Notes under the pieces: model-generated
Told to the model about the DNA's origin: nothing
Seen by the model: the letters and a program-made list of their open reading frames with translations, nothing else
Databases searched by the model: none
In this document: positions 10,692 to 60,727 of the stretch, piece by piece
Numbering within the stretch: the first letter of the stretch is position 1
Layout of the letters: each line of letters starts with the position of its first letter
Program-made: the position numbers and the translations under genes
Assembly: GCA_001821765.1 (NCBI GenBank)
Contig: MHOA01000001.1
Coordinates: 1,580 to 65,579, forward strand
Reading direction: 5' to 3'
Source of the DNA: Candidatus Ryanbacteria bacterium RIFCSPLOWO2_12_FULL_44_26
Lineage (GTDB): Bacteria; Patescibacteriota; Minisyncoccia; Ryanbacterales; HO2-45-13
Length of the DNA: 64,000 bases

Positions 10692-10707
10692 TTCTTAGTA
10701 TAAAATT

Positions 10708-10746
10708 TTAAACAAACCCTGCATGTATGTGGGGTTTGTTTTTATA
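10708..10746 (+). terminator. Rho-independent terminator after pilin gene
   Basis: AACAAACCC / GGGTTTGTT stem followed by TTTT. Confidence 0.75.
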
Positions 10747-10977
10747 AAAAACTGTTTTTGTGAAAGGGTTGCGGTTGCTGGTGAATAGAAGGTTGTTTGT
10801 GACATCTGTCCAACGATGAGAGATAAAACATTTTACATGTGGGAGACAAGTTTATGCGCGAATATAAAAAAGTTTCCCCTATTATCCACCGTAATAAAAA
10901 AGCCCTGTCAGGCCCTTTGGATGGATTTTTGCTCAAACAGGGTATCAACGGCCCATGCGATTTGTTGCTTGCCGTTT

Positions 10978-11006
10978 CGGTGTCTTTGTTCTACAATATA
11001 TCCAGA
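10978..11006 (+). promoter_or_regulatory. Sigma70-like promoter (TTGCCG-17-TACAAT)
   Basis: Read from sequence; 14 nt upstream of GGAG RBS and ATG at 11020. Confidence 0.45.
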
Positions 11007-11019
11007 AAGGAGAAAAACC

Positions 11020-11223
11020 ATGCAACAGCGGGCATGTTTTGTGTGCGGAACTCCTATAAATAGCTGTTTTGGTTATGTGCTTGCCGGTGATTTCATTCAA
11101 GCACTGAATGGTCTGCTGGAATGGACAAAAGTTCGGGAGTTATGTGGGAAGTGTGTGGAAAAATATGAGTGGGAAAAAAGCGCAGGAAATATGAAAGGGA
11201 AAAAAGTGCAGGAGAAAGGATAG
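11020..11223 (+). CDS. Small Cys-rich zinc-ribbon-like protein (67 aa)
   Basis: GGAG RBS; CFVCG...CGKC two CxxC pairs; terminator hairpin directly after stop. Confidence 0.4.
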   Translation: MQQRACFVCGTPINSCFGYVLAGDFIQALNGLLEWTKVRELCGKCVEKYEWEKSAGNMKGKKVQEKG

Positions 11224-11253
11224 GTCATCTGTAAAAAAGATGACCTGTTTTTA
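11223..11253 (+). terminator. Rho-independent terminator
   Basis: GGTCATCT-loop-AGATGACC then TGTTTTT. Confidence 0.6.
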
Positions 11254-11398
11254 TATAAACCGTAAACCGAACTTTCTCTGTTAAAAAAAGGATCTCATTA
11301 AAATTTGTACACTTTCCTACGATCATAGTTTTTTGTGCAGATTTTTTAGCTGCACTTATATTCACCGGATGGTTTCGGCTTTTATACCAGACGTTTAC

Positions 11399-11611
11399 CT
11401 ATCCCTCTTTATTGTCTTCGTGCCAGTTTTTATGCCGTTCGCAACACCATGGATGCCAGCAACGTCCGCGCTTTTTTCCAAACAGCAGTGAAATTCCAAA
11501 AGCTATTAGAGCAATTGGCCAGAAAAAATCCCAGAAATCGCCAGGCATATATCCCAACGCCTGCAAAAGCCACAGAGCACCTATAATGATAAATAACAAT
11601 CCAGCAAACAT
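11399..11611 (-). CDS. Small membrane protein with LiaF/PspC-like transmembrane N-terminal region and Cys/His-rich tail
   Basis: LLFIIIGALWLLQALGYMPGDFWDFFWPIALIAFGISLLF then CWHPWCCERHKNWH. Confidence 0.45.
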   Translation of the reverse strand: MFAGLLFIIIGALWLLQALGYMPGDFWDFFWPIALIAFGISLLFGKKRGRCWHPWCCERHKNWHEDNKEG

Positions 11612-11776
11612 TATACTTATTGTATGTTCTTTTAATGGTTTTCGTCAACAAAAAGCGTGTAAGCTGTGTTGGTTATTCCATTATGCGGACAACTTTGATT
11701 GCGCGCTCGTTTCGTGATATAAGGGCAATGGAGTAATGTCTTTTGATGAAGAGAAAAACATGGAAGGAAAAAATCA

Positions 11777-12055
11777 ATGGAAATGATTCTTTCAGTGCCG
11801 ACAGAAAAGATTGAGCCGAGATATCCTGTCGAGGAACTCCCTACGCACTTTAATAAGAAGGTTGACTTGCCGTTTGTTCCGCATATTGGAGTGGAGTTTA
11901 TTTTAAGCTCCGGATATATCAAGGAAGTTGAGGGTATAGTGACCAAGCTGGAGTACTGGCTTGAAAGCGATGAACTGTATGTAACGATTGATGTGAATAA
12001 AGATAACTTTGAACCTTGTTACTTCTGGGAGACTGGTTGGAAGGATGTTGGTTAG
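11777..12055 (+). CDS. Hypothetical protein (92 aa)
   Basis: ORF with upstream purine-rich region, no recognisable domain. Confidence 0.35.
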   Translation: MEMILSVPTEKIEPRYPVEELPTHFNKKVDLPFVPHIGVEFILSSGYIKEVEGIVTKLEYWLESDELYVTIDVNKDNFEPCYFWETGWKDVG

Positions 12056-12292
12056 TACTTTCTCTCCAGCCCGTTTACTGGTTATAAGACTGGGGCGGGC
12101 TTTTTTATATATCATTACTCTTGTTTTTTGTTTTAAACCATAAATATATTGACAAATTCAACATAAAATTGATCAAAGAGCTGATCCCGTTAGCAATTCA
12201 TTTATGACTTTCTTTTCGTGATGTCTGCAAGGGAAACCGACTCCGTTTCCGTTTATTTCCATAGATACATAATAATAGTGGATTTTTTGCGG

Positions 12293-12321
12293 TTGACATC
12301 CTCGCCGTTCTCGTGTATAAA
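12293..12321 (+). promoter_or_regulatory. Sigma70-like promoter TTGACA-17-TATAAA
   Basis: Consensus -35, 17-nt spacer, followed by AGGAG RBS and ATG at 12348. Confidence 0.6.
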
Positions 12322-12347
12322 GGAGTGGAACTTTTAAGGAGAAGGCA

Positions 12348-12665
12348 ATGAGAGGAAAAGACAATGCGCTTTTGGAAGCGCTTGTGGCCAAGCACGGTCC
12401 GGATTCTGTTTTCGGCAAGATGCTTTTAGAGGAAAGAGAAGTGGATAGAAGAATGTCAAAGTGGCACCGATCACCTCAATGCTTCATCCCGTGGATTTTA
12501 TGTGGAATGACTTTCGTAGTGGCCCTGTTTCTTCTTTCATTTTTCGTGAGTACCGCAATACTTATCTTCATCGGTAACTTTCTTGCCATGGCATGGTTGT
12601 TGCAGCGAGAGGACGATATGTTCCAAAAAGCCTCAAAGGAGGTTTCCAGGGCACAACTTCACTGA
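12348..12665 (+). CDS. Small membrane protein (105 aa), hypothetical
   Basis: Strong promoter+RBS; two predicted TM helices; terminator downstream. Confidence 0.55.
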   Translation: MRGKDNALLEALVAKHGPDSVFGKMLLEEREVDRRMSKWHRSPQCFIPWILCGMTFVVALFLLSFFVSTAILIFIGNFLAMAWLLQREDDMFQKASKEVSRAQLH

Positions 12666-12745
12666 ACGAGAGCCGATTTCAGTAAAAGTCCTAAGCACGA
12701 CTATAAAAGGCTTTTATATATTTGACCGTCACCTTTTTGGCAAAC

Positions 12746-12775
12746 AAAAAGCGAGGGGTTGACTCGCTTTTTGTA
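12746..12775 (+). terminator. Rho-independent terminator
   Basis: AAAAAGCGAG-gggttgac-CTCGCTTTTT. Confidence 0.6.
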
Positions 12776-12789
12776 CTGTGATACGCTTG

Positions 12790-13062
12790 TTTCAGCGGTG
12801 GTGGTTCTGTGCCAAGAGACGGCGTTCGGAGGGGAACCCTCTCTCCCCACTTCCCTACGGGGAAACCCGTATTCCCCTCGGAGGTCTTTCTTTTTTGGCA
12901 CGGGGCCACCACCCACCAGCTCTCTGACGATTGAGAGTTTTGTGACAGGCGTGTCTCCTTTAAAGGACACATTGCCCGAAATGTCGAGGCCTGTTGCCTT
13001 GCCCTTGGTAATGTTTCTTAAAAAAGCGTGAAAACGCGGAAACCTCTTACCAAGGGCTTTTT
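12790..13062 (+). ncRNA. Candidate structured non-coding RNA (unassigned family), GC-rich with GNRA-capped hairpins
   Basis: No convincing ORF; nested pairings GGTGGTGG...CCACCACC, CGGG-GAAA-CCCG, GAGGG-GAA-CCCTC, CTCTC...GAGAG, GTGTC...GACAC; ends in CCCTTGGTAA...TTACCAAGGG + TTTTTT. Confidence 0.3.
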
Positions 13063-13380
13063 TATTTAATGTTTCCCTCATGCTTGTGTAAGATGAGCAT
13101 AGAACATTTGATTAAAATCAAAGAAGATACAAACCCAAAAGGTAAAGAACAAACAGCGCTAGAGAAAGTAAGAAAAAAATTTCCTGCTGTTGTTGAATTA
13201 GAACTTTACCGAATTACAGATGGACGGATTAGTTTTTTACCTTAAACTCTTTATATATCAAGGAATATAATATCTTTATCAAATTTATCCACAGAAATTT
13301 CTTGACATTTTTTCATATTTATTATCCTATGTAATATAATAAAAGTGTCCTAGAATTAGGATGCCCAAGTGGGCTTAAGA

Positions 13381-13421
13381 GCCCCCCGTGAGCGTTAAGC
13401 GGTCGCGGGGGGCATTTTTTT
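13381..13421 (+). terminator. Rho-independent terminator (GCCCCCCG...CGGGGGGC + T7)
   Basis: 8-bp GC stem followed by ATTTTTTT; lies ~75 nt downstream of a TTGACA box at 13303. Confidence 0.55.
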
Positions 13422-13477
13422 AAATTAAAAATCCCCAACACTTTTGTTGCCAGAAACATACTTGACGGCATTTGGAG

Positions 13478-13525
13478 TTTTAAATATAAAAGAGCCGCTT
13501 TCATGATCTTGCATGCAAGCGGCTC
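13478..13525 (-). terminator. Rho-independent terminator for the minus-strand nuclease gene
   Basis: GAGCCGCTT-loop-AAGCGGCTC; on minus strand followed by TTTTATATTT. Confidence 0.6.
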
Positions 13526-13550
13526 CAACCTTGGCTTTAAACGCCCTCTT

Positions 13551-14708
13551 TTAATCAAGGTGCATTGACAGTTTTGCTTTTCCTCTCTTGACCCGCCGTT
13601 TATGTTTTTCAAACGGCATGTCTCTTCTGTGTCTTTCCCTGTATTTCTTGTACTTGAATTGGATGTTCAGCGACAACTGTTCGCTTTGTGGTTCAGTTCT
13701 GTGTCGTGAAAGAAATTCGGAAACAACGTGTTCCCTAAAGGCGTCGGTGTCAGCATTTTGCGGCTGGCGAAAAGGGCATATTTGTTCAAACTTGCACGAT
13801 GAACAGTAAGGGCCGGGCCTTGGAACAAAGTGCCCTCTCTCCACGTCTTCCGGGTTTAGAAACCGAAACGGCAGTTCTCTCGCGCGCGGCGAATCTGGCG
13901 CGAGAATGTTTTGGACTTTGGCTCTGGCTTCGTCAAAAAGACATTCCAGGTTGTAGAAGTGGTATTTATTTCTCAGGGGCACTTCCACGATTTCTTGTCT
14001 GGCAAGCAGCAGCGCTCGCATTTTTTCCGGCACGATGCCAAATTTGTGCCAGAGGGCATATTGGATAACGGTAAACTGGAGGTCACGCACCGCTTTTTCT
14101 TCTGGAAAGGAGGCCATACCGGTTTTATAGTCGTCAACGATAAAACCGCCATGTTCGATCGGCTGTTTCCTGTCGATAATACACACCAGACGTATGCCTG
14201 TTGGGGTCTCAATTCTCACTTCTTCTTCAACGGTCGGGGCAAGAGGATGTGGCGGCAGAAGGTAACGATTCTCATCCCAGAATCTGGAAAGGATATGGTG
14301 TCCGCGGCCGAAATGTACTCCGGGCTCTTTTCCATTCCGTCCCTCGGGCATTCTCCAGCGTATCGGATCTTTTCCATCAGGCGATATCGGGTATTGGTAT
14401 GTAAGAATGCTTCCAAACCATTCACCTCTCCATTTTTTCAGAAAATCTTCTTTGCTCTTGCATGGTTTTGTAAAAAACAGCTCCAGTCTTTTATGAATGG
14501 CTCTTCCGGCTATCAGTTCAATGGGCTCCGGAACGGGCGGGTCGGGTGGGTCTATATACTCTAAGCGAAACTGTTCTCCGCACGGCTCCAATCTTCCAAG
14601 TTTCGTTACACTCCATTCTTCCCACATCCTTTTTTTCTGTGCAGGTGTTCGAAGCCGCCACGGCGTCTTCGGTCTAACCTTTTTCGGATCGGCGTTTTTA
14701 ATAGTCAT
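13551..14708 (-). CDS. Cas4-like PD-(D/E)XK nuclease with 4-Cys Fe-S cluster motif (stand-alone, no CRISPR context)
   Basis: N-terminal Cys (EPCGEQF), catalytic IVDDYKTG (D..D/ExK), C-terminal CSSCKFEQIC (Cx2Cx5C) as in Cas4/AddB nuclease domain; very basic C-terminal tail. Confidence 0.6.
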   Translation of the reverse strand: MTIKNADPKKVRPKTPWRLRTPAQKKRMWEEWSVTKLGRLEPCGEQFRLEYIDPPDPPVPEPIELIAGRAIHKRLELFFTKPCKSKEDFLKKWRGEWFGSILTYQYPISPDGKDPIRWRMPEGRNGKEPGVHFGRGHHILSRFWDENRYLLPPHPLAPTVEEEVRIETPTGIRLVCIIDRKQPIEHGGFIVDDYKTGMASFPEEKAVRDLQFTVIQYALWHKFGIVPEKMRALLLARQEIVEVPLRNKYHFYNLECLFDEARAKVQNILAPDSPRARELPFRFLNPEDVERGHFVPRPGPYCSSCKFEQICPFRQPQNADTDAFREHVVSEFLSRHRTEPQSEQLSLNIQFKYKKYRERHRRDMPFEKHKRRVKRGKAKLSMHLD

Positions 14709-14794
14709 GTTTCCGTCCTTTTAATTTGAAGGTTCGTCCTTTTAGAGAGTACGAAAAATAACCACGATATGCAAATAAAAACACCTCTGATATT

Positions 14795-15145
14795 TCACAG
14801 AGGTGATGTTTCAGCCAAGAAGGCATGTGTGTCAACTCTTTCAAGGGAACACAATATATCGTTTCCCATGACGCAGATACTGTTTTTAAGGGACTTTTTC
14901 TTTGCCAATGAGCATGTCTCGAGCCGTCCGTTTAATCGCGCCTCAAGCGTGTCAAGGTTGATAATAACCCCGTTCCGTTCCAGCGCTTTGTCGATCCCAA
15001 ACACGATCTCCTTATAATTTCTATACTTCTGTATATGTGTAAAACATATGTGTTCAAAGCAATCATATGGAAGTCGGTGTTGGTGTAGAATTCTTTCTAT
15101 GTCGTTTTGTATCCTTTCAAGAACGCGTTTGGAGGGTGTTTTCAT
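14795..15145 (-). CDS. Hypothetical protein co-oriented upstream of Cas4-like nuclease
   Basis: Internal Met (MKTPSKRVLERIQ) preceded by AAGGGGGAAA RBS; ~116 aa, no known domain. Confidence 0.4.
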   Translation of the reverse strand: MKTPSKRVLERIQNDIERILHQHRLPYDCFEHICFTHIQKYRNYKEIVFGIDKALERNGVIINLDTLEARLNGRLETCSLAKKKSLKNSICVMGNDILCSLERVDTHAFLAETSPL

Positions 15146-15243
15146 TGCTATTTCCCCCTTTCTTTTTATACGATAAAGCAAACAGGCCAACTGTCAATAG
15201 CACCGGGTAAAGTGCCAGCAGTGTTTGTGCATCGCCCCATCAG

Positions 15244-17144: not shown

Positions 17145-18212
17145 ATGATTGAGCAAAAAAACATAGAAAGCCCTTCTTTTTTTATTGGCCTTGACGATAA
17201 AGATATTATTTCATTTGGAAGCGGCCAGCCGGATTTAAGCCCTCCAAAGGAGGTGTATAACATTCTTCCCACATACTCTGCGTTTCGATACGGCAGGATT
17301 GAAGGTGATAAGGAACTTCGTATCGCTCTTGCAGCGCAATATCCAAAAGCCGCTGCGGAGAATTTTGTTATCACGAACGGAGCTTCTGAAGCGCTTGATT
17401 TGTGTTTTAGGGTTCTTGCCGGAATGAAAGGAAAAAAGAAAATTCTTTTGCCGAGCCCTTATTATTATTCTTATCCTTTTATAGTAAAGTTTGCGGGACT
17501 TGAGTCGCTTTATACCAAACTGAAAGCAGGTAGGATTGATATAAATGATTTTAGTGCAAAAATTAAGAAATGCGCAGCGGTGTTGATCAATTCCCCGTCA
17601 AATCCGACAGGGAGAATTGAAGCTATTGGCACGCTTAAAGAAATTGAGCGGATTACAAAACAGCTTGGTATTTATGTGATTTCGGATGAAGTATACAAGG
17701 ATCTTATTTACGAGCGGGAAAATTATCTCATTAAAGGGCCTCGTGTTATAACGGTAAACTCGTTTTCAAAAACGTTTGCGATGTGCGGTTTGCGTGTGGG
17801 GTACCTGTATTCTTTGGATGCCGACTTTATTCGCCGTGTTATTGAAATGAAGACGCATGTCTCCATGAATACAAATATTTTAGCTCAGGCAATGGCGCTT
17901 GAAGCAACCAGAGTTCCGAGAAGTTACGTCGATTCGCAGATTGCTGTTTGGAGAGAGCGCCGTGATTTTATTTATGACGGGCTCAAATCAATTGGATTAG
18001 ATCTTTGGAAACCGGAAGGCGCGTTTTACGTTTTTCCGAAGGTAAAAAACGCAAGTAAAGCGGTAAGCGATCTTTTTTACAAGCAGAAAGTCATTGTGTA
18101 CGATGGGGCGTGGTTCGGGAGTCCCGGAAGGATTCGTTTAAGCTATGCGCTTGATAAGGAAAAAATCCGGGAAGGCATTAAGCGCATAAACTCGTATCTT
18201 ACCCGGCAGTAG
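17145..18212 (+). CDS. PLP-dependent aminotransferase class I/II
   Basis: SFSKTFAMCGLRVGY PLP-lysine motif; 355 aa. Confidence 0.8.
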   Translation: MIEQKNIESPSFFIGLDDKDIISFGSGQPDLSPPKEVYNILPTYSAFRYGRIEGDKELRIALAAQYPKAAAENFVITNGASEALDLCFRVLAGMKGKKKILLPSPYYYSYPFIVKFAGLESLYTKLKAGRIDINDFSAKIKKCAAVLINSPSNPTGRIEAIGTLKEIERITKQLGIYVISDEVYKDLIYERENYLIKGPRVITVNSFSKTFAMCGLRVGYLYSLDADFIRRVIEMKTHVSMNTNILAQAMALEATRVPRSYVDSQIAVWRERRDFIYDGLKSIGLDLWKPEGAFYVFPKVKNASKAVSDLFYKQKVIVYDGAWFGSPGRIRLSYALDKEKIREGIKRINSYLTRQ

Positions 18213-19368: not shown

Positions 19369-19402
19369 TGTATGGTTAACGTCAAAGATATCCAAACGTC
19401 AA

Positions 19403-19430
19403 AAACCGCTGCTTATGTGCAACGGTTTTT
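19403..19430 (+). terminator. Putative rho-independent terminator after tgt
   Basis: AAACCG-15 nt loop-CGGTTT overlapping TTTTT. Confidence 0.4.
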
Positions 19431-20110
19431 GACTCGTTTCAGAGGCCGAGGAAGCAAGTCTTAGCTCTTTTAACACAATGAAAGTCTTGACATGTCCGGA
19501 GACATATCAAAAAGCTTTTTTTATGTTTGTGATAACTATTACTTGACCTAAGTGCTGTCGGCCTCTGAAAGAACTGGAAACACTCATCTATGTCTGAAGT
19601 CTACTTCCATTAAAATACATTGCAAAAAAAAATCAAGAGCTGGTTTTTTTGCATAATTCAGGATTTATCCACTGGAAACAGTGGTTTTTGTACCTCTTGT
19701 TAAAACGTTTTCCAGTGGATTTCCACATTTTGTATTCTTTATATATAACGTTGGAATCTATAAGTTTGATACGTCTTTTCACTGGGCGGGTTTATATATG
19801 GTTCGTTTTTTAAAAATACTGTTTTACTAAGCACATTTGCCAATTATGTGTTATTTGCATTCCGTGTAATGCGCCGTTTTTTTATATTATAAACTTCTTA
19901 TACCTTTACCTTTAAAAGTCAGATTGTCGGGTTTATTTGCTTCGTCATATATTCTGTATTTATAGTCGCATCTTTCCGATTACTGCTTAAGGGTAGCAGT
20001 TTTGTAAAGAAAGCCGTTTTACACTGTATGCTGGTATGTTGTCCGTTTTTAACATATTTGCATGCAATATGTGTTTTGCCTGCATGTATGCTACAGTTGG
20101 CATTGGTATT

Positions 20111-55579: not shown

Positions 55580-55682
55580 TATAATTAAATGCCGCCACTT
55601 CGATAAACTCAGTGCAAGCAAAGAAAAACTTGTGGTTCGGCAGACTTACCATCCTGAGTTTATCGGAGGAAAATTGTCAGCG
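55580..55682 (+). promoter_or_regulatory. Copy B of duplicated TATAAT + structured leader element
   Basis: Same conserved blocks as copy A with a 23-nt insertion and compensatory stem changes (GTCCT/AGGAC vs GTGGT/ACCAT). Confidence 0.5.
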
Positions 55683-56127
55683 GTGCTGCTCCCCGCCTGC
55701 GCCGAGGCTTGGTTCGGCTTTACTCACCATAAGTCGCTCAGTGCAGGCCGCCGCATTTCTGAATTTTCGCGGGGGGATTTCCTCGCCCTTCGATTGACTC
55801 AGGGCGAAATGCCGAAGGTACTGAGGAACGAAGTATGTTCGGATTTTGTCAAACAAGCGCATATCAAAATGAATACCCAGATTTTTACTGGATATTCATT
55901 TTGATAAGTTTTCAGAAGGAAAGCCGTTTTCTACTCAAGTCCTCTTCGGCGGGGTAAAGAAGGCGGCCTCATAACAAACCGCGAGCTTTGTTATGGGATT
56001 TGCCGTATAAAAAGGTTTTTTTAACCTATGTTTAGGCACAATCTGCCATAGTCCTTTTTGAAAAGTTTTAGTATGCTAATAATAGCGTCGTTATCTATTT
56101 TTTATGGAACGTAGACAATAAAATAAA

Positions 56128-59868: not shown

Positions 59869-59897
59869 TTGCAATCTTGCACGTATTGTGCTATGCT
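59869..59897 (+). promoter_or_regulatory. Sigma70-like promoter TTGCAA-17-TATGCT
   Basis: Read from sequence. Confidence 0.45.
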
Positions 59898-59903
59898 CAA
59901 CCT

Positions 59904-60171
59904 TGTCCGATGCTGGGAAGCTTACCGAGCCGGCAAAACTCAGCGCTTGAGGACAACAGATGCGCTCGGACCCTAGGGAAAATGGCGTTTCCCGGCCACT
60001 CTCGGGTAATGACAGGGATAGGTTCCGCAAGGAAAGCTGGCCCGAACGGAACCGAAAAGAAGAACAGCGGCCAATACACATGACCCCAGTGTGTAGGCGT
60101 CAAAAAAGCCGTGAAGGTATGGGGCCGCCCCCTCCGAACGCTAATGCTAGTAGGAGGGGGTTTTTCTTTTT
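59904..60171 (+). ncRNA. Candidate small RNA (~267 nt) from promoter to intrinsic terminator; contains an SRP-RNA domain-IV-like GNRA hairpin (possible long-form ffs)
   Basis: No plausible ORF; AGGUUCC-GCAA-GGAAAGCUGGCC at 60021-60043 resembles the SRP RNA AGGUCC-GGAA-GGAAGCAGCC; terminator CCCCCTCC...GGAGGGGG+T run at 60128-60171. Confidence 0.4.
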
Positions 60172-60338: not shown

Positions 60339-60521
60339 GTTTTGTAGAAAAAGATACAGAAGCACCCAGAGCGTGGGACGCGCTTCGCGCGTCCCACCAA
60401 AAAATCGGTCTTTTGTCTGAAAATCGGATTCTGGAGTATATTTACGACCTCGCTAGAACCTATTTTATCAAAAATGCCTGACCAAAGGAAGCCGCCCCGC
60501 CGCCGCTCGCTAACGCTCGCC

Positions 60522-60605
60522 GCCAAGCAAAATACTCTTTACGATTTCGGATTTGCGCGCGCCACCAAAAAATTCTTCTAAAAAGAAAAGAGTATTTTGC
60601 TTGGC
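60522..60605. repeat. 19-bp perfect inverted repeat (GCCAAGCAAAATACTCTTT / AAAGAGTATTTTGCTTGGC) with 46-nt loop
   Basis: Read from sequence; lies in a GC-rich hairpin-dense region. Confidence 0.7.
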
Positions 60606-60727
60606 TCTGCTCTGAACGAGCAGGCGACGGGGCTGGCCTCTATTTTTGCTCGCGGGGGCAAGGCGTTTCCTCCCCCTCGCCCCCTCCACGCCTTGCCCGC
60701 TCGCCAAAAAAGTTGGGTGGGTTGGGA

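What the first reader, a model, noticed from the sequence alone, without database searches (positions are those of the whole stretch)
12778..13062. GC-rich structured element with GNRA-capped helices, no coding potential
This segment follows the terminator of the upstream membrane-protein gene.
- It carries long-range complementary arms GGTGGTGG/CCACCACC and GTGCC/GGCAC that enclose nested hairpins.
- Three of the hairpins are capped by GAAA or GAA loops (CGGG-GAAA-CCCG, GAGGG-GAA-CCCTC).
- Further stems follow (CTCTC/GAGAG, GTGTC/GACAC).
- It ends in a long hairpin plus U-run (CCCTTGGTAA...TTACCAAGGG-CTTTTTT).

The overlapping ORFs on both strands look like GC-driven artefacts. This may be a housekeeping RNA (RNase P, tmRNA or 6S were not recognisable by motif) or a novel structured RNA. 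It sits next to a stand-alone Cas4-like nuclease.
Basis: seen in the sequence. Interest (0 to 1): 0.6.

Follow-up and report, generated by a model that had tools for sequence, protein, structure and literature searches.

The report
Orphan structured RNA gene candidate
A GC-rich stretch of about 270-290 bases in a Candidatus Ryanbacteria genome folds far better than chance on one strand, ends in a classic terminator and matches no known RNA or protein family, so it is probably a lineage-specific non-coding RNA gene; with no relatives available, its function cannot be tested.

Summary

- **Fold:** the + strand folds at -135.8 kcal/mol (z = -7.5). The 5' domain has 12 G-U pairs on + against 3 on the minus strand.
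- **Context:** the element sits in the longest intergenic gap of the window (885 nt), in a 60% GC block of a 43% GC genome. The genome is Ca. Ryanbacteria, GCA_001819935.1.
- **Signals:** a + strand-only intrinsic terminator closes it at 13001-13063. A weak extended -10 promoter (TTGACT-17-TGaTACGCT) lies inside the upstream gene's terminator.
- **Known families:** Rfam 15 gives nothing. It is not RNase P, tmRNA, SRP, 6S, T-box or any known riboswitch.
- **Coding:** the overlapping 126-aa ORF has no true homolog in 5.8 or 1.84 billion proteins, runs through both terminators and gives no confident fold. Its codon score is only intermediate.
- **Main gap:** I found no homolog of the element. All 12 contigs compared are 100% identical over the gap, so covariation is untested.

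Best reading: a stand-alone, Rho-independently terminated structured RNA on the + strand, in a small block of orphan genes that may be foreign. Confidence is about 0.5 and the function is unknown. No link to the neighbouring PD-(D/E)XK nuclease is shown. Interest is moderate to low.

The parts
12744..12774 (.). T1: bidirectional terminator hairpin of the upstream 105-aa membrane-protein gene (ACAAAAAGCGAG / CUCGCUUUUUGU, 7-nt loop). It has U-rich tails on both strands.
   Evidence: pair probability 0.93-0.99; -16.3 kcal/mol.
12759..12787 (+). Candidate promoter. The -35 TTGACT (12759-12764) lies in the T1 loop, followed by a 17-nt spacer, an extended TG (12779-12780) and a -10 TACGCT (12782-12787). 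The predicted start is about 12794.
   Evidence: best of two relaxed matches in 12600-12800. It was not reported by the stricter scan. This is inference, not shown.
12780..12791 (+). P1 5' strand, GAUACGCUUGUU. It pairs with 12944-12955 over 12 bp, including 3 G-U pairs. P1 exists only if transcription starts upstream of 12780.
   Evidence: probability 0.78-0.98; a duplex this good occurs in about 1.7% of shuffled or genomic flank pairs.
12797..12913 (+). P2: a 117-nt arm. Its 23-bp basal helix is GGUGGUGGUUCUGUGCCAAGAGA / UUUUUUGGCACGGGGCCACCACC (5 G-U). Above it are internal loops, then the helix AGGGGAA/UUCCCCU.
   Evidence: z = -5.9 on +, -3.9 on the minus strand.
12837..12855 (+). C/U-rich 19-nt internal loop, CCCUCUCUCCCCACUUCCC(U), predicted to be single-stranded.
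   Evidence: unpaired probability 0.96-0.99 for 12837-12843 and 12849-12855.
12856..12871 (+). Tip hairpin UACGGG-GAAA-CCCGUA (GNRA tetraloop at 12862-12865).
   Evidence: Pair probability is only 0.45, because an alternative tip pairing exists in the centroid structure.
12918..12939 (+). P3 hairpin AGCUCUC / GAGAGUU with the 8-nt loop UGACGAUU.
   Evidence: probability 0.68-0.95; loop unpaired, probability 1.0.
12944..12955 (+). P1 3' strand, GACAGGCGUGUC. It can instead pair downstream, as GACAGGC with GCCUGUU (12989-12995) and GUGUCU with GGACAC, if the RNA starts at about 12794.
   Evidence: palindrome I6, 12952-12971.
12963..13000 (+). Small irregular hairpin between the 5' domain and the terminator.
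   Evidence: probabilities 0.61-0.89. This is the least certain part.
13001..13063 (+). T2: a 57-nt composite terminator hairpin of 11 + 6 + 4 bp, with an inner GCGU-GAAA-ACGC, followed by U6. There is no U-tract on the minus strand, so it works on + only.
   Evidence: probability 0.94-0.99; z = -7.1; -27.1 kcal/mol.
12701..13081 (-). Overlapping 126-aa ORF, called as a gene in the public annotations. Judged most likely spurious.
   Evidence: no true homolog; codon score 0.116, intermediate; AlphaFold2 mean pLDDT 52, pTM 0.22. It reads through T2 and T1.

Best explanation
The segment is a stand-alone, non-coding, highly structured RNA gene on the + strand, about 270-290 nt long.

**Ends of the RNA**
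- The 5' end is either about 12794, from a weak extended -10 promoter nested in the upstream terminator, or at or before 12780, from read-through of that terminator.
- The 3' end is about 13064, at an intrinsic terminator.

**Core structure**
- A 117-nt arm (P2) with a 23-bp basal helix, an exposed C/U-rich internal loop and a GAAA-capped tip.
- A short hairpin (P3).
- A long composite terminator hairpin.
- If the transcript starts upstream of 12780, a 12-bp helix (P1) closes P2 and P3 into a three-way junction.

**Setting.** It lies in a roughly 4.5-kb block of orphan genes that may be horizontally acquired.

**What is shown and what is inferred**
- Shown: exceptional fold, strand bias, terminator, no known family, no protein relatives.
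- Inferred: that it is transcribed, and where it starts.
- Guess only: that it acts in trans as a stable scaffold RNA, either binding a protein or pairing through the exposed C/U-rich loop.
For: **Fold**
- z = -7.5 for the whole element and for the 5' domain.
- It is the second most structured + strand 200-nt window of the 64 kb after GC correction.

**Strand**
- The 5' domain gives -93.7 kcal/mol with 12 G-U pairs on +. The minus strand gives -72.9 kcal/mol with 3 G-U pairs.
- No A.C appositions interrupt P1 or P2. This is expected for selection on an RNA and not for a DNA palindrome.

**Transcription unit**
- T1 closes the upstream gene.
- A promoter-like TTGACT-17-TGaTACGCT follows.
- T2 (-27.1 kcal/mol plus U6) works on the + strand only.
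- The RNA starting at 12794 still folds at z = -7.3.

**Genomic setting**
- It is in the longest intergenic region of the window (885 nt).
- That region holds a 60% GC block, in a 43% GC genome with about 34% GC flanks.

**Not coding**
- ORF126 matches only itself in 5.8 billion proteins.
- In a full HMMER scan of 1.84 billion representatives it matches itself plus two tandem-repeat artefacts.
- AlphaFold2 gives mean pLDDT 52.
- The ORF runs through both terminators.

**Not a known RNA:**
Against: - No homolog was found anywhere, so there is no covariation or conservation evidence.
- All 12 contigs compared are 100% identical over the intergenic region.
- There are no expression data.
- The promoter is weak (3 of 6 in the -10 hexamer). 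If it is used, it removes the 5' strand of P1, so the three-way junction and the promoter cannot both be right.
- ORF126 has a codon score of 0.116. That is above 98% of shadow ORFs and below 96% of true in-frame windows, so coding is not excluded.
- Orphan status is uninformative here, because the clearly real neighbouring nuclease is also an orphan.
- Few genes in this genome have a Shine-Dalgarno-like motif (12 of 50). This weakens the idea that the C/U-rich loop targets ribosome-binding sites.
Confidence: 0.5

Rival explanations
1. It is a structured 3' untranslated region or transcriptional insulator. The element is not a separate gene. It would be transcribed by read-through of the leaky T1 terminator of the upstream membrane-protein gene. 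It would stabilise that mRNA's 3' end and, with T2, block transcription running into the convergent nuclease operon.
For: - T1's G+C core is only 5 bp (GCGAG/CUCGC), so read-through is plausible.
- P1, which needs a start upstream of 12780, is well predicted (probability up to 0.98) and unlikely by chance (p about 0.02).
- No strong promoter precedes the element.
- Three successive + strand terminators sit between convergent genes.
Against: - A 290-nt element with z = -7.5 and GNRA-capped helices is far more than a terminator or stabiliser needs.
- T1 has a 12-bp stem and a U-tract and should stop most transcripts.
- The promoter-like site exists.
Confidence: 0.17
2. It is a cis-regulatory leader (riboswitch or attenuator). 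The 5' domain would sense a ligand or factor and control termination at T2. That would gate expression of the small ORF just downstream (13093-13245, 50 aa).
For: - The architecture fits: a structured domain closed by P1, then a terminator. The 3' strand of P1 can alternatively pair downstream (GUGUC/GACAC, GACAGGC/GCCUGUU).
- A 50-aa ORF starts 29 nt after T2 and is called in the JGI annotations.
Against: - No known riboswitch or T-box model matches even at E <= 10.
- I found no convincing antiterminator that competes with the T2 stem (inspection).
- The downstream ORF is tiny, has no family match and has a weak codon score of 0.11.
- The next substantial genes are on the opposite strand.
Confidence: 0.1
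3. It is a DNA-level element. The long inverted repeats would be a relic of a mobile element (MITE-like), a recombination site or an origin within a horizontally acquired island, with no RNA function.
For: - The surrounding genes are orphans with atypical features: low codon scores, and Shine-Dalgarno-like motifs in 4 of 4 against 12 of 50 for other genes.
- A 30-nt 80% direct repeat brackets 11897-13265.
- The neighbouring nuclease matches a phage exonuclease family (phrog_69, E = 2.8e-13).
Against: - About 18% of the pairs are G-U on the + strand, which would be A.C mismatches on the other strand. This is strongly asymmetric (12 against 3). A DNA palindrome should decay symmetrically.
- It is single copy in the 64-kb window.
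- There is no integrase or transposase nearby.
- There is no match in phage, plasmid or viral collections.
Confidence: 0.1
4. The 126-aa minus-strand ORF (12701-13081) is a real, lineage-specific, basic and disordered protein. The RNA structure would then be incidental.
For: - It is called as a gene in all public annotations.
- Its codon score of 0.116 exceeds 98% of shadow ORFs and is similar to the neighbouring real nuclease (0.099).
- A promoter-like site on the minus strand lies upstream, at 13291-13264.
Against: - It has no true homolog in two very large protein searches.
- AlphaFold2 gives mean pLDDT 52 and pTM 0.22.
- GC2 is 0.46, above the 0.28-0.44 seen in the other ORFs tabulated.
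- The last 24 or so codons run through T1, which is a good terminator on the minus strand.
- The fold energy and G-U bias favour the opposite strand.
Confidence: 0.07

Closest known systems
Orphan GC-rich intergenic structured RNAs of AT-rich bacteria, the kind found by GC/length screening of intergenic regions (e.g. the 26-genome survey, PMC8632094, seen)
   Same: It sits in an unusually long intergenic region holding a block much richer in G+C than the genome. It has stable nested helices and GNRA tetraloops, no ORF with relatives, and its own terminator.
   Different: Those classes are defined by multiple representatives with covariation. This is a single sequence with no relatives found, so it is a candidate and not a class.
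6S RNA (Rfam RF00013 and relatives)
   Same: Size class (about 180-nt 5' domain), a largely rod-like fold with the 5' and 3' ends paired, and a stand-alone gene.
   Different: There is no large two-sided central bubble. The only big loop is one-sided (19 nt) and near the tip. A side hairpin (P3) branches off. No 6S model scores even at E <= 10.
T-box leaders and terminator-type riboswitches
   Same: A long 5' hairpin or junction domain followed by small hairpins and an intrinsic terminator, about 270-290 nt overall. Alternative pairings exist for the 3' strand of P1.
   Different: There is no T-box sequence. No Rfam T-box or riboswitch match appears at E <= 10. No plausible regulated gene lies downstream, and I found no antiterminator.
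Trans-acting small RNAs with C-rich unpaired seeds, such as RsaE/RoxS of Firmicutes (from my own knowledge, not tested here)
   Same: It is Rho-independently terminated, with a C/U-rich segment predicted to be unpaired (CCCUCUC...ACUUCCC) that could pair with G-rich ribosome-binding sites.
   Different: It is three times larger. Only 12 of 50 genes in this window have a Shine-Dalgarno-like motif. There is no sequence similarity and no Rfam match.
Retron msr-msd non-coding RNA
   Same: Terminal inverted repeats (P1) enclose a short hairpin and a long, very stable hairpin. On the minus strand the order of parts would match a retron. A nuclease gene lies next door.
   Different: No reverse transcriptase was seen among the genes examined or called within about 10 kb. 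The rest of the window was not scanned for one. The G-U bias puts the RNA on the + strand, where the order of parts is wrong. No retron RNA family matches in Rfam.

Membership tests
Bacterial RNase P RNA (Rfam RF00010/RF00011) | A covariance-model match, including the conserved P4 core (GGAAAGUCC... / ...ACAGAA). | tested here: not met
   No match at gathering thresholds or at E <= 10 in sensitive mode. The motifs are absent from the sequence.
tmRNA | A tRNA-like domain with a CCA-proximal acceptor or T-arm, plus a tag reading frame. | tested here: not met
   ARAGORN finds only three tRNAs in the window. There is no Rfam tmRNA match.
Signal recognition particle RNA (4.5S / large SRP) | The domain IV motif (GGAA/GNAR loop with a conserved symmetric loop) and a covariance-model match. 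| tested here: not met
   No match.
6S RNA | A covariance-model match to RF00013 or related models. | tested here: not met
   It is not among the matches at E <= 10.
6S RNA | A rod with a closing stem, a large two-sided central bubble and a terminal stem. | tested here: not met
   The MFE and centroid structures show a 23-bp uninterrupted basal helix, a one-sided 19-nt loop near the tip and a branch hairpin.
T-box leader | A conserved T-box sequence forming an antiterminator that overlaps the terminator, with an aminoacyl-tRNA synthetase or amino-acid gene downstream. | tested here: not met
   There is no RF00230 match. There is no T-box sequence upstream of 13001. Downstream is a 50-58-aa orphan ORF and then opposite-strand genes.
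Known riboswitch classes | A covariance-model match to an aptamer family, and a same-strand regulated gene downstream. | tested here: not met
Novel structured RNA class (general criteria) | Multiple homologs whose helices are supported by compensatory changes. | not testable with these tools
   No homolog was obtained. The protein-anchored scans were. The DNA pattern scans were. blastn was run. nhmmer and covariance model R1 were run over 1.35 Mb of held loci. All copies of the locus are identical.
Novel structured RNA class (general criteria) | Thermodynamic stability beyond composition, with strand asymmetry. | tested here: met
   z = -7.5 (+) against -5.9 (minus) for the whole element. For the 5' domain, z = -7.5 against -3.8, with 12 G-U pairs against 3.
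MITE / REP-type repeat | Multiple dispersed copies in the genome. | tested here: inconclusive
   It is single copy in the 64-kb window. The rest of the genome could not be searched.
Retron non-coding RNA | An adjacent reverse transcriptase gene on the same strand. | tested here: not met
   No RT domain was seen in the neighbours scanned or in the precomputed Pfam lists for genes within about 10 kb.
Protein-coding gene (ORF126) | Protein-level conservation in other genomes. | tested here: not met
   It matches only itself. The two other hits are summed weak matches to tandem-repeat proteins.

The most novel reading that the evidence does not exclude
The element would be the founding member of a new class of medium-sized structured non-coding RNA in Candidate Phyla Radiation bacteria, possibly carried by a mobile or foreign gene block. 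It would have a defined tertiary fold: GNRA tetraloops, a possible three-way junction and an exposed C/U-rich loop. It would perform a specific job such as protein sequestration, nuclease guidance or catalysis, rather than merely being a stable transcript end.
Probability: 0.15. Interest if true: 0.6.

Novelty: new member of a known kind. Interest (0 to 1): 0.35.

Why it matters
Candidate Phyla Radiation bacteria have tiny genomes with little spare DNA, and almost nothing is known about their non-coding RNAs.

A gap of nearly 900 nt that holds a 270-290-nt RNA candidate with a fold this stable is therefore unlikely to be junk. A second small RNA-like unit lies 280 nt downstream.

If transcribed and conserved, it would add a new RNA family to a lineage where Rfam recognised only tRNAs in this window. 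At least three further strongly structured intergenic stretches in the same 64 kb also have no Rfam match (C59, a fourth GC-rich one, is not strongly folded).

As it stands it is a single-genome candidate. Its practical value is as a seed for a covariance-model search and for mapping existing Rifle metatranscriptomes.

Tried and rejected
**Known RNA families**
- Rfam gave nothing at gathering thresholds or in sensitive mode.
- The IRES_mnt (22 bits against 100) and RAGATH-7 (22 bits against 111.8) matches were rejected as far-sub-threshold matches.
- ARAGORN found no tmRNA.

**Attempts to find homologs**
- Protein-anchored retrieval with the nuclease found no relative in genome contigs. The 5.8-billion-protein search returned only one cluster, 99% identical.
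- Translating the RNA region (ORF126) as bait for relatives whose spurious ORFs were called returned only itself.
- The aminotransferase anchor returned 80 loci, none from Ryanbacteria. That gene is shared at 60-67% identity across CPR, DPANN archaea and others.
- nhmmer and a single-sequence covariance model, R1, found nothing in those 1.35 Mb.
- The PilM anchor in metagenome contigs returned one 23%-identity relative.
- A concatenate of five neighbouring small proteins as one query returned nothing, not even the self matches. That search was wasted and is uninformative.
- Three exact or degenerate DNA patterns against viral contigs gave no hits or one chance hit inside a coding region.
- blastn against the phage and plasmid collections found no match.

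**Strain variants**
- looked for variant copies. Every copy of the intergenic region is 100% identical.
- The 247-aa 'variant' P0014 is the same DNA translated with TGA read as an amino acid.
- The slightly diverged proteins P0006 and P0009 exist only as protein assemblies, with no DNA.

**Ideas rejected**
- Retron RNA: no reverse transcriptase, and the wrong strand.
- Integron attC site: no R'/R'' boxes.
- T-box: no T-box sequence.
- 6S RNA: no central bubble.
- SRP-like reading of a different GC-rich gap (59890-60165): no Rfam support, and z is only -1.5.
- The C/U-rich loop as an anti-Shine-Dalgarno seed: weakened because only 12 of 50 genes carry such a motif.

**Literature.** Two searches for CPR structured RNAs found nothing relevant.

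Full report
**Source and setting**

The window is from Candidatus Ryanbacteria bacterium RIFCSPHIGHO2_02_FULL (GCA_001819935.1, contig MHNU01000013.1). This is a Parcubacteria/CPR genome from the Rifle aquifer. Record coordinate = 65588 minus window coordinate. Window GC is 43.5%.

The finding lies in the intergenic region 12666-13550. At 885 nt this is the longest gap in the window. It holds a 150-nt block of 60% GC, tied for the richest among all intergenic regions. Its AT-rich flanks are 32-34% GC.

Upstream is a 105-aa membrane-protein ORF on the + strand (12348-12665). Downstream, on the opposite strand, is a 385-aa PD-(D/E)XK nuclease (13551-14708; Pfam PDDEXK_1, E = 7e-17). Cas4 models match only its C-terminal cysteine motif, weakly. 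'Cas4-like' therefore overstates it.

Yes.

- The + strand of 12760-13075 folds at -135.8 kcal/mol, against -94.1 +/- 5.6 for dinucleotide shuffles (z = -7.5).
- Each sub-domain is significant on its own: 5' domain 12780-12955 z = -7.5, P2 arm z = -5.9, 3' domain z = -5.4, terminator hairpin z = -7.1.
- In a GC-corrected scan of all 200-nt windows, this is the second most stable on the + strand.

One detail needs correcting. The GAGGG-GAA-CCCTC hairpin is out-competed by AGGGGAA/UUCCCCU (probability 0.89-0.97). This leaves CCCUCUCUCCCCACUUCCC(U) as an exposed 19-nt loop.

**Anatomy**

| Part | Coordinates | Description |
|---|---|---|
| T1 | 12744-12774 | Bidirectional terminator of the upstream gene |
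| P1 | 12780-12791 / 12944-12955 | 12 bp, 3 G-U pairs |
| P2 | 12797-12913 | 23-bp basal helix with 5 G-U pairs, internal loops, C/U-rich loop, GAAA-capped tip |
| P3 | 12918-12939 | 7 bp, 8-nt loop |
| Weak hairpin | 12963-13000 | Least certain part |
| T2 | 13001-13057 plus U6 | 11 + 6 + 4 bp, inner GAAA tetraloop, -27.1 kcal/mol |

P1 encloses P2 and P3 as a three-way junction. A duplex this good between the two flanks arises in about 1.7% of controls. The 3' strand of P1 can instead pair downstream, as GACAGGC/GCCUGUU and GUGUCU/GGACAC.

**Which strand, and RNA or DNA?**

- The 5' domain gives -93.7 kcal/mol with 12 G-U pairs on the + strand. It gives -72.9 kcal/mol with 3 G-U pairs on the minus strand.
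- No A.C appositions interrupt P1 or P2.
- A decaying DNA palindrome should collect G.T and A.C mismatches equally. This bias argues for selection on a + strand RNA.
- T2 has a U-tract only on the + strand.

**Transcription signals**

The strict scan finds no promoter before the element. A relaxed scan finds TTGACT (12759-12764, in the T1 loop), a 17-nt spacer, and TGaTACGCT. That predicts a start near 12794, at the foot of P2.

An RNA of 12794-13066 still folds at z = -7.3, but it lacks P1. So either the RNA has its own weak promoter and no P1, or it arises by read-through of T1 and has P1. I cannot decide between these.

**Coding potential**

Three ORFs overlap the element. The 126-aa minus-strand ORF is annotated as a gene in the public records.

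- It has no relative other than itself in the 5.8-billion-protein search.
- The same holds for a full HMMER scan of 1.84 billion representatives. The two extra hits there are sums of weak matches to tandem-repeat proteins.
- AlphaFold2 gives mean pLDDT 52 and pTM 0.22.
- The ORF reads through T2 and T1.
- Its codon log-odds score is 0.116. That is higher than 98% of shadow ORFs and lower than 96% of true in-frame windows. Composition does not exclude coding.
- Orphan status is weak evidence, because the real nuclease next door is equally orphan.
- Shine-Dalgarno evidence is uninformative. Only 12 of 50 genes here have such a motif.

I put coding at about 7%.

**Known families**

Rfam 15 at gathering thresholds finds only three tRNAs in the window. 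Sensitive mode on 12500-13500 gives only far-sub-threshold matches. ARAGORN finds no tmRNA. RNase P, tmRNA, SRP, 6S, T-box and all riboswitch models are therefore not met (see the membership table). There is no similarity to phage or plasmid DNA.

**Comparative evidence: the missing piece**

I could not obtain a single diverged homolog.

- Anchoring on the nuclease, an aminotransferase and PilM gave nothing useful.
- The 80 loci from the aminotransferase come from unrelated CPR, DPANN and other lineages. They contain no match by nhmmer or by a single-sequence covariance model.
- Viral pattern scans gave nothing, or one chance hit.
- The organism occurs in dozens of Rifle assemblies. All 12 contigs compared are 100% identical over the 885-nt gap (826 nt for the short contig L094). 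One 16-kb comparison showed only two SNPs, both inside the nuclease gene.

**Context**

The block from about 10.7 to 15.2 kb holds small ORFs with no family match, most with lower codon scores than the long core genes used for training. All four ORFs checked there have Shine-Dalgarno-like motifs, against 24% of the other genes. The nuclease matches a phage exonuclease family. This suggests a foreign or fast-evolving block. However, there is no integrase, and there are no convincing boundaries. The only candidate boundary is a 30-nt 80% direct repeat at 11897 and 13236.

**Verdict**

| Reading | Probability |
|---|---|
| Stand-alone structured non-coding RNA on the + strand, ending at T2 | about 0.5 |
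| Structured 3' UTR or insulator | 0.17 |
| Leader or attenuator for the downstream 50-aa ORF | 0.10 |
| DNA-level relic | 0.10 |
| Real protein (ORF126) | 0.07 |

For the leading reading, function is unknown. My best guess is a stable scaffold that acts through protein binding or through its exposed C/U-rich loop. That guess is weak.

It is a new, unclassified example of a familiar kind of object, and a reasonable seed for a proper covariance-model and metatranscriptome follow-up. It is not yet a discovery.

Noticed in passing
window 13312-13427 (+): A second small-RNA-like unit lies 280 nt downstream of the element. It has a good sigma-70-type promoter (TTCATA-17-TATAAT, 13312-13340), then two short hairpins and a strong terminator (GCCCCCCG...CGGGGGGC, -29 kcal/mol, U7). 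The roughly 80-nt RNA folds at -43.3 kcal/mol, z = -5.9. Its only Rfam matches are junk (PyrR, 20 bits).
   Followed up: partly
window 55620-56020 (+): This is a roughly 400-nt intergenic stretch with a 60% GC block. It gives the most stable GC-corrected fold on the + strand (MFE -163.7 kcal/mol, z = -5.6) and ends in a hairpin plus U-run. No Rfam match appears at E <= 1 apart from miRNA junk. It is another unknown structured RNA candidate.
   Followed up: partly
window 60345-60715 (best on the minus strand): A GC-rich (52%) gap lies just after tRNA-Thr(GGT). It has very long nested inverted repeats (e.g. CAAGCAAAATACTCTTT...AAAGAGTATTTTGCTTGG). MFE is -164.2 kcal/mol, z = -6.0, on the minus strand. 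There is no Rfam match.
   Followed up: partly
window 59890-60165 (+) and 12822-12834: A GC-rich (59%) intergenic block ends in a terminator (CCCCCUCC...GGAGGGGG-U5) but is not unusually structured overall (z = -1.5). Its terminator 5' arm and loop (60129-60141, CCCCTCCGAACGC) is a perfect 13-nt complement of 12822-12834 in the element under study. At window level the E-value is about 0.8, so this may be chance.
   Followed up: partly
window 19390-19580 (minus strand): A strongly structured stretch (GC-corrected z = -4.6) lies just after the tRNA-guanine transglycosylase gene, inside a 667-nt AT-rich gap.
   Followed up: no
window about 10700-15200: The genes around the element look atypical. 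All four checked (up105, nuclease, orf116, orf92) have a Shine-Dalgarno-like motif, against 12 of 50 other genes. Most have lower codon scores than the core genes. The two searched against the big protein database, the nuclease and the spurious ORF126, returned only themselves. This may be a foreign or fast-evolving block.
   Followed up: partly
window 11897-11926 and 13236-13265: A 30-nt direct repeat, 80% identical, has one copy inside the 92-aa ORF and the other just after the small ORF downstream of the element. Together they bracket a 1.34-kb segment that contains the element. It could be an old insertion scar or chance.
   Followed up: partly
window 11161-11212: A perfect-register tandem duplication of a 26-nt unit (88% identical) lies inside the 67-aa ORF at 11020-11223.
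   Followed up: no
window 17145-18212; loci L003-L082: The class I/II aminotransferase is 60-67% identical to proteins in Aenigmarchaeota, Nanoarchaeota, Saccharibacteria, Latescibacterota, Gemmatimonadota and others. This suggests wide horizontal spread among small-celled and other lineages.
   Followed up: no
loci L092-L094; protein P0014: Some public gene calls translate this locus with TGA as a sense codon. This fuses the upstream 105-aa gene to a 247-aa product that reads across the RNA element. It is an annotation artefact, since the DNA is identical.
   Followed up: yes
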